Part shown: in pieces, positions 5,756 through 9,700 of the stretch
Position numbering within the stretch: position 1 is the first letter of the stretch
How the letters are laid out: each line of letters begins with the position of its first letter
Source of the DNA: Promethearchaeia archaeon
GTDB lineage: Archaea > Asgardarchaeota > Lokiarchaeia > Sigyniarchaeales > SOKP01
Length of the DNA: 32,000 bases
Assembly (NCBI GenBank): GCA_046497275.1
Contig: JAWOFX010000084.1
Span: 30,001-62,000 of the forward strand
Direction: 5' to 3'
Program-made: the position numbers and the translations under genes
The notes under the pieces: generated by a model
Seen by the model: the letters and a program-made list of their open reading frames with translations, nothing else
The model's database searches: none
Told to the model about the DNA's origin: nothing

Positions 5756-6664
5756 CTAAATACTTGCAAAAACAAAAGATAAGAGTCCTAAAAAAGCTCC
5801 AACCTTGAGAAATAAACTAATTTTTCCAAAACTCTTTTTTGAAAGATCACTCACCACAGAAAGAATGAATGCTATAATGACAACCGCAAGACCAAAAAAC
5901 ATCGAAAAAAGGTAAGCCCAAAAGTTAATGATATTAGTAAATATAGGTAAGATAAAGAAACCTATTGCTAGTAAATCAAAAGCCATTGAGAAATATAATG
6001 CATTCTGAACTCCAAGAATTATAGCTAATGTCTTGACCCCTCCTTCTCTTTTATCTCCTTCAATATCCTCACAACCTTTCACAACTTCTCTAGCAAATAA
6101 TAAAAAGAATGCTGTTAAAAAGAAGAAATAAATGTAAAGAGGGATATTATAACCGTTTAAGATTGCTCCATATAATAATCCGATTGAAAATGAAATACTC
6201 ACAATAATATTACCAAATATTCCACTCTTTTTTCCATAAGCTGCATAGAGCCATCCTATAAATCCAAAAAAAACGGCAACAATAATATTAACATAACCTA
6301 AGTTCAATAATAAACTATGGATAATAGCCAATAATATACCAATTGTTAATATGATAATGTAGTAATATTTTGCTTCTTTTAAGGAAATTTCTCCCATGGG
6401 GATCGGTCTTTCAGGGCGATTAATTCTAGACACTAACAGAATCTATCTGTTAATTTTATCTATTTCGACATCATAAATGTCGTTAACTATCATCCCTGAC
6501 CCAGCAATTAATATATAAGTCGCCACTCCTATTATGAAATTTAAGATAAGATCTAATAGAGGGACGCCGGTTCTTGTATTCAGAACACCTATGATAACTG
6601 TTAAAGCTCCCATCAAACAATTGATCGGGCGTATTATTTCAATATAAGCTTTCTTTAATGTCAT
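5756..6664 (-). CDS. Digeranylgeranylglyceryl phosphate (DGGGP) synthase, UbiA family; two exons (6664-6456 and 6425-5756) around a candidate 30-nt BHB intron, 292 aa after splicing
   Basis: ORFs 6443..6676 and 5756..6433 are in the same frame. IRPINC, NDIYDVEID and REVVKGCEDIEGD are DGGGPS/UbiA motifs. Removing 6426-6455 gives NDIYDVEIDKINRPERPIPMG. ATG at 6664 is preferred over TTG at 6676. Confidence 0.85.
6426..6455 (-). other. Candidate bulge-helix-bulge (tRNA-type) intron in mRNA, 30 nt
   Basis: mRNA reads AAU|AGAU|AAA|AUUAACAGA-UAGAU-UCUGUUAGU|GUCU|AGA|AUU. This gives a 4-bp central helix (AGAU/GUCU), two 3-nt purine bulges, a 9-bp intron stem and exon-exon pairing; the in-frame UAG is in the loop. 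Confidence 0.8.
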
Positions 6665-6751
6665 GTGTTTTAGCAAAATTGATTTTTTTATTAATTATTA
6701 ATAAAAAAGTAATTACTAAATACTTTACGAAATATATTTGACAAAATTAGA

Positions 6752-9700
6752 TTAAAAGTTATCTAATTTAATAAAGGTAGAAGAATTTTTTACAATTCTA
6801 GCTCTTTTTACCGATTTGATATATCTATTGGAGGGAATTTTGATACCTTTTTGAATCGCCAATCTTCTCCAGCTAACCTTCCAACTTTCGGGGACAAGAC
6901 CATTCTTAATTTTTTGAATGTTTTCAGTTAGAATATTAGAAAAAAATTTCAAGAGATCTTTATCATAGCGATCTGCTGCGTTTATAAATCCATGATTATC
7001 TCTAAAAAGATAGACTAAATTATTGGGATCTAAATTATATTTCTCAAAATCAATATGATGCAAAATAATATCTCCATTGTTAAAATCCTGAAGATTGAAT
7101 ACTTCCCCTGTCAACATATCAACGAATTTCCACTGTTTATGATTTGTGAGATATCTAAATAAACTCTTGAGTGTCTTGAATTCTTTAGAAACATTAAAAA
7201 TTATTAGTTTTTCCTTATTTAATAGAGTGAATATCTGAGATTCCGCATTGAAAATGCGTAATTTCCTATTCTTGAATTGTGCGGGATACCCATGGCATTG
7301 AACATCATAACCAAGATCTTCATAAGATGGATCTAAATCCTTTATTAAATGATTCATCGAAACCTCTAACCTATCTTTAAACCAACGAGCTCTAACTTTA
7401 TTTAATATCGTTAATTTATCTATATCTAATCCGATTATATCTTTTTCTTTTCTAAGATTTTTGATAGTCGGAAAATAACGCCCTTTTCTAATTTCAGATA
7501 ATTTAGAATCGAGGTAATCTTCTAATCGCCGAGTATCACTCATAATTCCATTATTATAAAGATATTCAGTAAGATTAGGAGCAATGTTGTTTTTATCTAA
7601 CCAACGAGATATGTATATTGATAGCCATTGAAAATCAGTAAATTCATCTGTAATATTCATTATATTTTCGGGTGTAGGAAGAAAAGTATAATTTGTAATT
7701 TGTTCCTTTAATGGATTTAATAAATCACGTAACTTTTTTTTATAAGTTGCCAAACCAGCCTTTTCTTGAAGTTCTGTTATTAGAGGCAAGTTATTTTGAT
7801 TTAACCAAGAATTTACTAATGAAGGTAAAGTATCAAAATTCAAATCTGGTCGCTCTTGAATAATATTTTCAACAGTAGGAATGAAATTATAGGATTTTAT
7901 TTCAATCAACTTCTCATCTAAAAATTCATAAACCGGGACACTCTTTATTAGTCCAGCGTCTTTTTTCAAATCTGTCAAATACTCATATGAAATTTTTCCG
8001 TCTGAAAACCTAGCCTTAAACCAAACTGCAATTTGGTCAGAAGTTACATCCTCATAACCTGTATCTTTAATTACGCGATCCAATGTGGGTATATATCTCA
8101 AATTATTAATATCATCTAATTTAGAATCTAAAAATTGATTTAGCTTATGTTGCAAAGGTACATAAAATCGATTACTAAAATCTAAATTTAGTTTTTTCTC
8201 TAAATATTCAAGAAAACGATAAATGACAGGCTCAGAAAGTCCGACTTTTTCAATTAAATCTTTTTTATAAAGCTCATCACCCTCTTTATTAAATAAATAA
8301 TATATAAACTTATAACATTTAATTACCAAATCTTTACGAGCTTCATTATATTTATATTTAAAAGTATCTGTAATAATCCCTTTAATTAAACTATCATTGC
8401 TTTTAAAACGCGAAATAGATTTAATCCCTTTACAGAATAGTTTATAACAAATTTCCATAATAGAATCTAAATCATCAGCTAAAAAAGTACTAGAAATAGA
8501 AAATTTATCATCTAAGTTAAGTCCGCATGACTCTAAAACGTTAGTTATCCTTCTTAAAACCTTTCGAGAAAGACTGAATTTTTTAGCAAGATGTTTTTTG
8601 GGTAATAATCTATCATGGAAAAGTAAATGAGAAATTACTTGAAAGTATTTCTTGATGACGCCAATACGCGATTCTGTGAATAAATAACCAAATTCCTTAA
8701 TTATATTAGATAAAATACTTTCTTTGTTGGATTCTATGTCTTTAAGAGTATATTTACCACTTTCTAAAATCTTGTAGCATTTCTTTATGATTTCTATAGA
8801 ATCTTCAACTGCGAAAAGTACATATACACGCGAAAAACCCTTCTCAATATACTTGCCTTCAACCTTAGAATTTGATTCTTTATCCATATTTTCCATGATA
8901 TTGGATAATTGTTTAGATGGTGGAATAATAAGATCTTTTTCTTGTCTAATTTTCTCAAATAAAGGATAAAAAGGTAACCCATAATTTCTCATTAGGATTT
9001 TATTTATCGCATCCAAACCTAACATGATATCAGTTTTAAAAGTCTCTTTCATATTGTTTTTAAGCAAGAAATTATCAGTATAGGTCTGATCATATACGCA
9101 AAACTCCACATCCGAAATGAAATCACCTTGCTCTGAAATATTCAATACACCCGAAATGGTGATCTTTTTTCTTTTCTTCTCGGGAAAAAATTGATCAGCG
9201 AACTTACGGGGCATAATCGATATAAAGGAACCAGAATCAAGAAAAGCGGTAAGGGATTGACCTTTAATTGTGATTTTAAATGGTTTATCAGTTCTAAGAG
9301 ATTTTCCTATAGGAGAGGCATAAAAACATTTAATAGCTGTGTTAATATTAGGTCTAGAATATATCCAAAGGGAAGGTTGTGTGAGGAATCTACTCTTTTT
9401 TCTATTATCTATAGTAAAATAATTCCGCAATTGTCTCTCAGGCATGAAAATATCTCCACAGGATAACAAAGATTTTTTCATATCTTTTATTGAGTGTTTG
9501 GTATTATGAGAAGTTAAAAGGAAACATCTCAACGCTCCAAAATTTGAATCTTTTGGCTTGAATAGATTCCCATTTTGAAAAAGTAAATAGATAAAAACCT
9601 CGACTTGAGTGAGATTGAGATTAAATAGAGATGCAATATCTTCAAATAATAATTTTTTTTGTTCATTCACATAATAATTGCGTACGAAATGCATATAGTC

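What the first reader, a model, noticed from the sequence alone, without database searches (positions are those of the whole stretch)
6413..6470. Candidate tRNA-type (BHB) intron in the mRNA of DGGGP synthase, a core ether-lipid gene
Seen: the apparently broken gene is one reading frame with 10 extra codons (INR*ILLVSR) inside the first Asp-rich UbiA motif. The transcript folds as outer pairing AAU/AUU (extended by CGA/UCG past a 2-nt bulge), central helix AGAU(6461-6458)/GUCU(6431-6428), bulges AAA(6457-6455) and AGA(6427-6425) each 3' of its central-helix strand, and an intron stem AUUAACAGA/UCUGUUAGU closing a UAGAU loop that holds the stop. Cutting after the second nucleotide of each bulge removes exactly 30 nt (6455-6426) and joins GAU AA + A AUU AAU CGC CCU = DKINRP, giving NDxxDxxxDxxNxPxRP with consensus spacing. 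Established: this geometry and cut rule are the substrate of the archaeal tRNA splicing endonuclease (EndA), with RtcB ligation; the classic mRNA example is the cbf5 intron of some Crenarchaeota. Inference: synthesis of the second ether bond here would depend on mRNA splicing, since unspliced mRNA gives a ~73-aa stub. Annotation pipelines would call such genes pseudogenes, so similar micro-introns could be overlooked elsewhere in this lineage.
Basis: partly seen in the sequence, partly recalled or inferred. Interest (0 to 1): 0.95.

Follow-up and report, generated by a model that had tools for sequence, protein, structure and literature searches.

The report
tRNA-type mini-intron in archaeal lipid gene
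The only working-looking copy of a core membrane-lipid gene in this Loki-type Asgard archaeon is interrupted by a 30-base intron of the kind normally cut out of tRNAs, and an environmental RNA contig lacks exactly those 30 bases, so this is very probably real archaeal mRNA splicing, published so far for a single gene (cbf5).

Summary

- **The insert.** A UbiA/DGGGP-synthase gene (minus strand, 5756-6664) carries a 30-nt insert (6426-6455) with an in-frame TAG inside its first Asp-rich motif. Removing it restores EIDKINRPERPIP, which 28 of 29 family orthologues compared have uninterrupted; none carries the insert.
- **The fold.** The insert forms a bulge-helix-bulge motif whose standard cut sites match the boundaries defined by homology (shuffle p about 1.5e-5).
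- **Conservation.** A homologous 30-nt intron sits at the same site in three other metagenomic lineages. There is one compensatory pair in the central helix. Both exons are under purifying selection (dN/dS 0.11).
- **RNA evidence.** Two DNA runs carry the insert. One metatranscriptome contig (319 nt, no mismatches) lacks exactly these 30 nt.
- **Machinery.** The genome encodes two EndA paralogues, consistent with an (alpha-beta)2 enzyme, and RtcB.
- **Other genes.** EF-1alpha, TFS and a ubiquitin E2 in this genome carry similar 30-32-nt introns.
- **Earlier scan reports.** This scan has reported such mRNA mini-introns before on other Asgard and DPANN DNA.
- **Caveats.** The RNA evidence is one low-depth contig from a different study. 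A 6-nt direct repeat flanking the insert leaves a reverse-transcriptase artefact possible.
- **Unexplained.** In three of the four intron-bearing lineages, a 6.2-kb insertion with a 1751-aa ORF lies immediately upstream.

The parts
6456..6664 (-). Exon 1 of the DGGGP-synthase-like UbiA gene: ATG at 6664, 69 codons plus 2 nt, ending ...GAU AA.
   Evidence: Translation. PF01040 match of the joined protein. dN/dS 0.096 against lineage B.
6426..6455 (-). 30-nt BHB intron. The register is equivalent anywhere within the AATTAA direct repeat. It contains the in-frame TAG at 6445-6443.
   Evidence: Absent from 29 orthologues. Homologous copies in lineages B, D and E. Left out of RNA contig X8 but present in DNA runs X1 and X2.
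5756..6425 (-). Exon 2, from A AUU AAU CGC... to the stop. Gene callers report it as a separate 225-aa ORF starting at a GTG inside the intron.
   Evidence: dN/dS 0.109 against lineage B.
6458..6461 (-). Central-helix 5' strand, AGAU, in exon 1.
   Evidence: Pairs with 6428-6431. 100% paired in four lineages, with one A-U to U-A compensatory change.
6428..6431 (-). Central-helix 3' strand, GUCU, in the intron.
6455..6457 (-). 5' bulge, AAA. Predicted cut between 6456 and 6455.
   Evidence: Sequence. Left unpaired in the MFE fold.
6425..6427 (-). 3' bulge, AGA (AAA in lineages B, D and E). Predicted cut between 6426 and 6425.
   Evidence: Sequence.
6432..6454 (-). Intron hairpin h': 9-bp stem with a 5-nt loop.
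   Evidence: 94% of cells paired across four lineages, with two one-sided pair-keeping changes.
6422..6424 (-). Outer helix 3' strand, AUU, which pairs with AAU at 6462-6464. Weak: only 2 bp remain in lineages D and E.
   Evidence: helix 1, 79% paired.
6752..12007 (-). 1751-aa ORF inside a 6.2-kb insertion (about 6665-12877) that separates pcrB from the DGGGPS gene. Its link to the intron is possible but unproven.
   Evidence: No Pfam family. The C-terminus has an HH-x11-N-x8-H motif and HNH-like Atlas look-alikes.
12888..13754 (-). pcrB (GGGP synthase). In at least 26 of 29 relatives, and in intron-less lineage C, it lies directly upstream of the DGGGPS gene.

Best explanation
The 30 nt at 6426-6455 are an archaeal bulge-helix-bulge (BHB) intron in the pre-mRNA of the genome's only catalytically intact DGGGP synthase.

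Proposed mechanism:
1. The transcript folds into a 4-bp central helix, formed by exon 1 with the 3' part of the intron. It is flanked by two 3-nt bulges, a 9-bp intron hairpin and a weak exon-exon helix.
2. The (alpha-beta)2-type splicing endonuclease EndA cuts after the second nucleotide of each bulge.
3. RtcB joins the exons, and probably circularises the 30-mer.
4. This recreates GAU AAA AUU AAU and so the motif NDxxDxxxDKINRPERP.
5. Unspliced mRNA ends after 73 codons.

Shown here: the structure, its conservation, the boundaries, selection on both exons, an RNA contig with the exact deletion, and the presence of the enzymes.

Inferred: which enzymes act, and that lipid synthesis depends on the splice.
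For: - **Boundaries.** Removing 30 nt restores EIDKINRPERPIP. 28 of the 29 family orthologues compared have this Asp-rich motif uninterrupted at this site, and none has the insert.
- **Geometry.** It is the canonical BHB and is unlikely by chance.
- **Homologous introns.** A 30-nt intron sits at the same site in lineages B (three assemblies), D and E. Between A and B, all 4 substitutions fall in the loop or a bulge, or keep a pair. Between A/B and D/E, the outermost central-helix pair changes from A-U to U-A, through a synonymous exon change plus an intron change.
- **Selection.** For A against B, dS is 0.50 and dN/dS is 0.108, with similar values in exon 1 (0.096) and exon 2 (0.109). For A against D, dS is saturated, yet the intron is still 22/30 identical.
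- **RNA.** In run X8 a 319-nt contig covers 6310-6658 with no mismatches and exactly 30 nt left out. DNA runs X1 (depth 7) and X2 (depth 20.7) carry the insert with no deletion.
- **Machinery.** There are two EndA paralogues (201 and 200 aa). The first shows Tyr, His and Lys residues at catalytic-looking positions by eye, and I found no such His in the second (not aligned to a reference). There are also two RtcB genes. Asgard EndA is reported as (alpha-beta)2 with the broad-specificity L1 loop (PMC5829648).
- **Same class elsewhere in the genome.** Joined proteins give continuous Pfam matches across 30-32-nt BHB inserts in TFS, a ubiquitin E2 and EF-1alpha. The EF-1alpha P-loop is restored with one residue, X in the joined read, at the break (GHIDHG-X-ST); the two exon ends read by eye give AAG, Lys.
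- **No back-up gene.** The other UbiA paralogues belong to other subfamilies or lack both Asp-rich motifs.
Against: - The RNA support is one contig of depth 2.4, from a salt-lake metatranscriptome of a different study than the DNA runs.
- No DNA from that same sample was examined, so an intron-less allele there is not excluded.
- The deletion is flanked by a 6-nt direct repeat and spans a hairpin. This is the context in which reverse transcriptase can skip by template switching.
- The outer exon-exon helix is only 2-3 A-U pairs. It is absent from the MFE fold, and a fifth central pair can compete with the 3' bulge.
- Only one compensatory pair was seen among four lineages, and the shuffle control is not significant on its own.
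- My genome-wide BHB scan showed no excess over a mirror-image decoy motif, so the motif alone does not discriminate in this AT-rich genome.
- An in-frame GTG or ATG lies inside the intron in all four lineages.
Confidence: 0.87

Rival explanations
1. Split gene. The insert is a short spacer with a stop and a restart, so two polypeptides (73 aa, and about 225 aa starting at the GTG or ATG inside the insert) are made and assemble into the enzyme without any RNA splicing.
For: An in-frame start codon lies 3 codons before exon 2 in all four lineages: GTG in A and B, ATG in D and E. Gene callers predict two ORFs. Purifying selection on both halves would also be expected under this model.
Against: - The RNA contig lacks exactly the 30 nt.
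- The break would cut the catalytic NDxxDxxxDxxNxPxRP motif and add extra residues on both sides of it.
- This model does not predict the compensatory change in the helix that joins exon 1 to the insert, nor the match between BHB cut sites and the homology boundaries.
- Sister introns in the same genome shift the frame, or leave a 16-codon exon, so they cannot work this way.
Confidence: 0.05
2. DNA polymorphism plus a decaying gene. The insert inactivates the gene in the sequenced populations, and the RNA contig comes from a co-occurring intron-less allele, or from reverse-transcriptase skipping between the AATTAA repeats.
For: A closely related intron-less lineage (C, about 89% nt identity) exists. 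The RNA and DNA runs come from different studies. The 6-nt direct repeat and the hairpin favour RT template switching (sequence).
Against: - dN/dS of about 0.1 in both exons across dS 0.5 (A-B) and across saturated dS (A-D), with no frameshift or further stop.
- The intron is itself conserved, and its changes respect the structure.
- The RNA contig matches lineage A at 319 of 319 flanking positions, whereas lineage C differs by about 11%.
- All five contigs carrying the exact lineage-A exon-2 ORF, whose start codon lies inside the intron, necessarily hold the insert. The three whose DNA was fetched show it in full.
- No other intact DGGGPS is present in a genome that is 98.9% complete.
Confidence: 0.05
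3. Translational recoding. Ribosomes bypass the 30 nt (as in T4 gene 60) or read through the stop, so no RNA processing is needed.
For: A stop follows directly after a possible take-off codon, and a hairpin follows. In lineage A, AGA occurs both before the TAG and at 6427-6425. In B, D and E, AAA occurs both before the insert and at its end.
Against: - No take-off/landing codon pair is conserved in all four lineages.
- The AGA-to-AGA hop would leave three extra residues inside the catalytic motif.
- The stop varies (TAG, TAA, TAA-TAG), which argues against pyrrolysine-type reading.
- Read-through would insert 10 residues into the Asp-rich motif.
- The RNA contig shows removal at the RNA level.
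Confidence: 0.02
4. Assembly or chimera artefact: the insert is not in the real genome.
For: None found. This was considered because the genome is a metagenome assembly of 188 contigs.
Against: The identical insert is present in two NCBI assemblies, two Logan assemblies and the window. Two DNA runs carry it at depth 7 and 20.7 with no variant. Diverged homologous copies exist in five further contigs of three lineages.
Confidence: 0.01

Closest known systems
cbf5 pre-mRNA intron of Crenarchaeota (Desulfurococcales, Sulfolobales; Watanabe 2002, Yoshinari 2006, Yokobori 2009 = PMC2738675)
   Same: A BHB intron inside a protein-coding gene. It is removed by the tRNA-splicing endonuclease of the hetero-oligomeric (alpha-beta)2 type. 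Its distribution among relatives is patchy, implying gain and loss.
   Different: The phylum (Asgard/Lokiarchaeia) and the gene (ether-lipid DGGGP synthase) are different. This intron is one of several 30-32-nt introns in the same genome (EF-1alpha, TFS, E2). PMC2738675 states that pre-mRNA splicing had not been confirmed for any archaeal gene other than cbf5, and my literature searches found no later published case.
Non-canonical BHB introns of Asgard tRNA genes (PMC11291895; bioRxiv 10.64898/2026.10.13.758758)
   Same: The motif is the same, the presumed enzymes are the same (two EndA paralogues in most Asgard genomes), and the introns show repeated lineage-specific gains. One tRNA gene of this genome has a canonical 28-nt BHB intron with an AAA 3' bulge.
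   Different: The host RNA is an mRNA, so the exon half of the motif must be built from codons. Here it is built from the synonymous-site-variable Ile-Asp codons. The splice must also keep the reading frame.
Collaborative homing of a free-standing endonuclease and an intron (cyanophage psbA intron with F-CphI; recalled from my own knowledge, not checked here)
   Same: The intron-bearing gene lies directly next to a lineage-specific ORF with a nuclease-like motif. The two co-occur in two phylogenetically separate clades.
   Different: The intron here is not self-splicing. The nuclease assignment rests only on a motif and on language-model look-alikes. Lineage E has the intron without the ORF, and the ORF has no paralogues next to other introns in the genome.
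Earlier reports of this scan on other DNA (for example e1-5051082, e1-5142328, e1-5395424 in Asgard; e1-5042322, e1-694666 in DPANN)
   Same: Mini BHB introns of about 17-32 nt in protein-coding genes, filed next to cbf5.
   Different: These are unpublished AI notes on other genes and genomes. As far as I can see from the notes, the present case adds an RNA contig showing the excised form.

Membership tests
Archaeal BHB (hBHBh') intron, substrate of the splicing endonuclease EndA | [quoted passage not shown] | tested here: met
   AGAU/GUCU helix with bulges AAA and AGA. The helix is 100% paired in four lineages, with one compensatory pair.
Archaeal BHB (hBHBh') intron, substrate of the splicing endonuclease EndA | Flanking helices: h' inside the intron and h between the exons | tested here: met
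   h' is 9 bp, or 8 bp in D and E. h is only 3 A-U pairs (2 in D and E) and is absent from the MFE fold. The motif is therefore closer to the relaxed HBh' form, which (alpha-beta)2 enzymes accept (PMC5829648).
Archaeal BHB (hBHBh') intron, substrate of the splicing endonuclease EndA | Cuts after the second nucleotide of each bulge give a functional, precisely joined product | tested here: met
   The predicted product is DKINRPERP, the same as in intron-less orthologues and in lineage C at the nucleotide level.
Archaeal BHB (hBHBh') intron, substrate of the splicing endonuclease EndA | The intron is removed from the RNA but present in the DNA | tested here: met
   An X8 RNA contig lacks exactly the 30 nt, and DNA runs X1 and X2 carry them. 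Weakness: one low-depth contig, from a different study than the DNA, with an RT artefact not excluded.
Archaeal BHB (hBHBh') intron, substrate of the splicing endonuclease EndA | EndA and RtcB are encoded in the genome | tested here: met
   Two PF01974 genes and two PF01139 genes.
Archaeal BHB (hBHBh') intron, substrate of the splicing endonuclease EndA | Cleavage by the cognate EndA, ligation by RtcB, and a circular intron | not testable with these tools
   This needs an in vitro assay or read-level small-RNA data.
DGGGP synthase (UbiA superfamily, geranylgeranylglycerol-phosphate geranylgeranyltransferase) | UbiA fold with both Asp-rich motifs | tested here: met
   PF01040 at 122 bits. NDIYDVEID is restored by splicing, and a second acidic motif, CEDIEGDKREG, is present.
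DGGGP synthase (UbiA superfamily, geranylgeranylglycerol-phosphate geranylgeranyltransferase) | Score above the NCBIfam equivalog cut-off | tested here: not met
   The best hits are PRK12884 (184 bits, cut-off 269) and PRK12882 (171 bits, cut-off 296). The assignment therefore rests on the top-ranked subfamily, on the names of close homologues and on gene context.
DGGGP synthase (UbiA superfamily, geranylgeranylglycerol-phosphate geranylgeranyltransferase) | Genomic linkage to the preceding pathway step (GGGP synthase, pcrB) | tested here: met
   pcrB lies directly upstream in at least 26 of 29 relatives and in lineage C. In this genome it is displaced by a 6.2-kb insertion.
Programmed translational bypass (T4 gene 60 type) | Matched take-off and landing codons, conserved among homologues | tested here: not met
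   AGA/AGA occurs only in lineage A, and AAA/AAA only in B, D and E.
Endonuclease-associated mobile intron (homing) | An adjacent recognisable nuclease gene that co-occurs with the intron | tested here: inconclusive
   The ORF co-occurs with the intron in A, B and D but not in E. There is no Pfam hit, only a motif and Atlas look-alikes. The AF2 model is unusable (pLDDT 50).

The most novel reading that the evidence does not exclude
The intron is not a passive relic but part of a mobile unit. In this reading, the 6.2-kb insertion between pcrB and the DGGGPS gene encodes a 1751-aa protein with an HNH-like C-terminus that targets intron-less DGGGPS alleles. The BHB mini-intron disrupts that target while host tRNA-splicing enzymes keep the gene working. 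That would be 'collaborative homing' using a protein-spliced intron. It would explain why homologous introns and the ORF occur together in two distant clades of the family, and why nucleotide identity to the intron-less sister lineage drops from 97% (pcrB) to 88% downstream of the insertion.
Probability: 0.15. Interest if true: 0.92.

Novelty: new member of a known kind. Interest (0 to 1): 0.8.

Why it matters
- **A rare phenomenon, extended.** Splicing of archaeal mRNA by the tRNA-splicing machinery is experimentally established for one gene (cbf5) in Crenarchaeota. [quoted passage not shown]
- **Three lines of evidence agree.** Comparative, selective and environmental-RNA evidence all point the same way.
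- **Not an isolated case.** EF-1alpha, TFS and a ubiquitin-system E2 in the same genome show the same kind of intron. Protein-dependent mRNA splicing may therefore be a regular feature of gene expression in this lineage.
- **Practical consequences.** Gene callers split such genes into stubs (73 aa plus 225 aa here). Metabolic reconstructions and pseudogene counts for Asgard genomes will be wrong where mini-introns are ignored.
- **A testable system.** This gives a concrete case for studying how introns enter protein-coding genes.

Tried and rejected
- **Genome-wide BHB scan.** I scanned for BHB motifs whose removal restores a long ORF. Real and mirror-image decoy motifs gave equal counts (776 against 783; with A-rich 3' bulges and L 26-35, 135 against 112). 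The scan cannot count introns. It only re-found this intron, the cdhA, TFS and E2 candidates, and EF-1alpha, which then needed Pfam checks.
- **Other copies of the insert.** blastn-short of the insert against the genome found none. Covariance model R1 found only the window's copy in 135 family genomes and in a 151-genome class sample.
- **Spliced fragments in the protein collection.** A search for short spliced protein fragments found none.
- **Word shares in RNA runs.** The index showed that RNA runs X22, X10 and X8 hold 0.50 of the sampled words of the 150-nt stretch around the junction, about what flanks without the intron would give. Only X8 was laid, and X10 showed no contig there, so I do not count these shares as evidence.
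- **Is the 1751-aa ORF a nuclease?** Pfam gave nothing significant. A PDB sequence search gave nothing. The AF2 model of the C-terminus had pLDDT 50 and was not searched. There are no paralogues of its C-terminus in the genome.
- **Terminal inverted repeats.** Those found around the 6.2-kb insertion are no better than the many chance pairs in this AT-rich DNA.
- **Comparison with the genome's tRNA introns.** ARAGORN's intron calls were too imprecise, and only one clean 28-nt BHB was recovered.
- **cdhA candidate.** The Pfam best stretch did not cover the junction, so it stays unverified.
Full report
**What is in the window**

On the minus strand, 6664-5756 is one reading frame of 303 codon positions (302 residues plus stops) with a single internal TAG. 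It reads ...GSGMIVNDIYDVEIDKINR*ILLVSRINRPERPIP.... The joined protein, with X at the break, matches Pfam UbiA (PF01040, 122 bits). In NCBIfam its best matches are the DGGGP-synthase-type models PRK12884, PRK12882 and PRK12883 (184, 171 and 141 bits), all below their equivalog cut-offs. Sources name close homologues as geranylgeranylglycerol-phosphate geranylgeranyltransferase of Lokiarchaeota or Promethearchaeota MAGs.

The genome (G000) is 3.85 Mb in 188 contigs, 98.9% complete, with about 30% G+C. Its order includes single-contig genomes of 4.4 and 6.0 Mb. I therefore treat it as a Loki-type Asgard archaeon.

**The observation**

- central helix AGAU (6461-6458) with GUCU (6431-6428);
- bulges AAA (6457-6455) and AGA (6427-6425), each 3' of its helix strand, which is the handedness of the tRNA BHB;
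- a 9-bp intron stem closing the loop UAGAU, which holds the stop;
- an outer helix AAU with AUU.

Cutting after the second nucleotide of each bulge removes 6455-6426 and gives GAU AAA AUU AAU CGC. The MFE fold reproduces the hairpin, the first bulge and the central helix (z = -2.55). It does not reproduce the weak outer helix, and it adds a competing fifth pair.

The excision register is therefore ambiguous over seven positions, and one of them is the BHB register. When the 30 nt are shuffled, a BHB that gives the same product arises in 1.5e-5 of trials at the observed quality and in 2.5e-3 at a minimal quality.

**Is it an insertion into a conserved gene?**

Yes. In 60 related genomes the orthologue was found in 52, and no full-length orthologue there has an internal stop (one partial second match in G036 carries three TAA). 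Of the 29 orthologues whose DNA I read, 28 have the Asp-rich motif (ND..D...D, mostly IDKINRPERPIP-like) at this site with no extra codons. The 29th (L034) has a variant motif, and none has the insert.

The other UbiA-family genes of the genome are not substitutes:
- a PRK12871-type prenyltransferase;
- a decaprenyl-phosphate phosphoribosyltransferase-like protein;
- two very weak hits;
- a paralogue on C124 that lacks both Asp-rich motifs.

In at least 26 of 29 relatives, and in lineage C, pcrB (GGGP synthase) lies directly upstream of the orthologue. This supports the lipid-pathway assignment.

**Is the insert real DNA?**

The exact lineage-A exon-2 ORF occurs on five contigs: two NCBI assemblies, two Logan assemblies and the genome's own. 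The three of these whose DNA could be fetched carry the identical insert. Two DNA runs cover it at depth 7 and 20.7 without variants.

**Comparative evidence**

The 90%-identity protein cluster around the gene led to a second lineage, B, seen in three independent assemblies. B is 87.8% identical in nucleotides and is split in the same way. An exon-anchored degenerate pattern with a fixed 30-nt gap found two more lineages, D and E, in metagenome contigs. All other matches in metagenomes, and all four matches in the species-representative genomes, were unrelated chance hits.

All four lineages carry a clearly homologous 30-nt insert at the same site.
- **A against B.** There are four substitutions: two in the loop, one in the 3' bulge, and one A-U to G-U.
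- **A/B against D/E.** The outermost central-helix pair changes from A-U to U-A, through a synonymous ATA-to-ATT change in exon 1 plus a U-to-A change in the intron. One U-G pair becomes U-A. The pair next to the loop is lost.
- **Overall.** The central helix is 100% paired and the hairpin 94% paired. Sliding the partners by 1-3 columns drops pairing from 91% to 24-50%.

With four sequences the shuffle control is not significant, so this is supportive rather than proof.

**Selection**

The spliced reading frames of A and B differ by dS 0.50 and dN 0.054 (omega 0.108). Exon 1 (0.096) and exon 2 (0.109) give the same result. For A against D, dS is saturated and omega is about 0.14. Yet the intron is still 22/30 identical, far slower than neutral. 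A gene killed by the insert would not behave like this.

**RNA**

Public metatranscriptomes of a salt lake hold near-identical sequence. When run X8 was laid on the window, it gave a 319-nt contig covering 6310-6658 with no mismatches and one gap of exactly 30 nt, placed at 6420. That placement is the left-shifted equivalent of 6426-6455. The DNA runs show no such gap.

There are three caveats:
- it is one contig of depth 2.4;
- the RNA comes from a different study than the DNA;
- a hairpin flanked by a direct repeat is the classic setting for reverse-transcriptase skipping.

Lineage C, the nearest intron-less relative, differs from A by about 11% in this gene. The contig therefore comes from lineage A itself, and every lineage-A DNA contig found carries the insert.

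**Machinery and context**

The genome has two EndA paralogues. In the 201-aa one I see Tyr, His and Lys residues at catalytic-looking positions by eye, and in the 200-aa one I see no such His. I did not align either to a reference. There are also two RtcB genes. This fits the (alpha-beta)2 enzyme with a broad-specificity loop reported for Asgard archaea (PMC5829648), and the two-paralogue pattern in 44 of 60 Asgard genomes (bioRxiv 10.64898/2026.10.13.758758).

First-stage notes of this scan list many further candidate mRNA BHB introns in this genome. I checked four of them, or new ones, by Pfam continuity across the joined protein:
- **TFS:** 30 nt; the TFIIS zinc ribbon is continuous.
- **Ubiquitin E2:** 32 nt; UQ_con is continuous.
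- **EF-1alpha:** 32 nt. The P-loop is restored with one residue, X in the joined read, at the break (GHIDHG-X-ST); the exon ends read by eye give AAG, Lys.
- **cdhA:** not decided.

The DGGGPS intron is therefore one member of a set.

**Distribution**

In a maximum-likelihood tree, A, B and the intron-less lineage C form one tight clade (100/99). D groups elsewhere in the family, next to a genome of another genus (83/94). Model R1 finds the intron in no other species-representative genome of the family (134 others) or of a class sample. This means either several losses or transfer between lineages.

**An unexplained neighbour**

In A, a 6.2-kb segment (about 6665-12877) sits exactly between pcrB and the DGGGPS start. 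Lineage C has only 13 nt there. Identity between A and C falls from 96.9% upstream to 87.7% downstream of the segment.

The segment encodes a 1751-aa ORF with no Pfam family. The ORF's C-terminus carries a conserved HH-x11-N-x8-H motif and has HNH-like look-alikes in the ESM Atlas (0.91-0.93).

The ORF is found upstream of the gene in A, B and D. It is not found in C, in E, or in the 29 relatives. It has no paralogues near other introns.

Earlier scan notes on other genomes describe mini-introns beside homing-endonuclease-like genes, and that is why I looked. The result is suggestive only.

**Rivals**

- **Split gene.** A model with a restart at the in-frame GTG or ATG inside the insert fits the ORFs and the selection. 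It does not fit the RNA contig, the break inside the catalytic motif, the register match, or the frame-shifting sister introns.
- **Pseudogene plus intron-less allele, or RT artefact.** This is contradicted mainly by selection and by conservation of the intron.
- **Translational bypass.** There is no conserved take-off/landing codon pair.
- **Stop read-through.** The stop varies (TAG, TAA, TAA-TAG).
- **Assembly artefact.** Excluded.

**Comparison with the known, and verdict**

This works like the cbf5 pre-mRNA intron of Crenarchaeota. PMC2738675 states that no other archaeal gene had confirmed pre-mRNA splicing, and five literature searches found no later published case. Only tRNA introns are described for Asgard archaea (PMC11291895; the 2026 preprint).

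It meets every defining feature of a BHB intron that can be tested in silico, plus RNA-level removal. Enzymatic cleavage remains untested. I file it as a new member of a known kind, in a new phylum and a new pathway. This scan has reported the same phenomenon before on other Asgard and DPANN DNA.

Confidence in the splicing explanation is about 0.87.

Noticed in passing
window 6665-12877 (1751-aa ORF at 6752-12007, minus strand; 179-aa membrane ORF at 12151-12690, plus strand): A 6.2-kb lineage-specific insertion splits the otherwise conserved pcrB-DGGGPS gene pair. Its large ORF has no Pfam family, but it has a C-terminal HH-x11-N-x8-H motif with HNH-like Atlas look-alikes. It lies upstream of the intron-bearing gene in lineages A, B and D only. 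Nucleotide identity to intron-less lineage C falls from 96.9% (pcrB side) to 87.7% (DGGGPS side).
   Followed up: partly
G000 contig C83:19114-19145 (L070:215-246, plus strand): The EF-1alpha gene is interrupted in its P-loop by a 32-nt BHB insert: helix AUGG/CCAU, bulges UAU and AAA, and a 10-bp stem. Joining at the standard cuts gives a P-loop reading GHIDHG-X-ST (X at the break; AAG, Lys, by eye) and a continuous GTP_EFTU match.
   Followed up: partly
G000 contigs C130:8745-8774 (TFS, 30 nt), C79:2991-3022 (ubiquitin E2, 32 nt, minus strand), C46:5373-5403 (cdhA, 31 nt): These are further BHB mini-introns in protein-coding genes, also listed in first-stage notes. Pfam domains run continuously across the junction for TFS and E2. 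For cdhA the best match did not cover the junction.
   Followed up: partly
G000 contig C124:6899-7753 (L066:397-1290, minus strand): This is a UbiA-like paralogue, 31% identical to the DGGGPS and conserved in relatives, that lacks both Asp-rich motifs. It is probably a non-catalytic or differently acting membrane protein.
   Followed up: partly
L046-L049 compared with the window (DGGGPS gene): Closely related lineages are mosaics. For example, L049 is C-like at its 5' end and A-like at its 3' end. This points to recombination within this population and complicates any gain/loss count for the intron.
   Followed up: no
whole genome G000: ARAGORN finds only 26 tRNA genes in a genome that is 98.9% complete, and 14 of them have called introns. 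Many tRNA genes are probably too interrupted to be recognised, as reported for other Asgard archaea.
   Followed up: no
window 6428-6436 and the homologous positions of L040, L054 and L056: An in-frame start codon lies within the intron's 3' arm and central-helix strand in all four lineages: GUG in A and B, AUG in D and E. The G-to-A change that creates the AUG also turns a U-G pair into U-A.
   Followed up: partly
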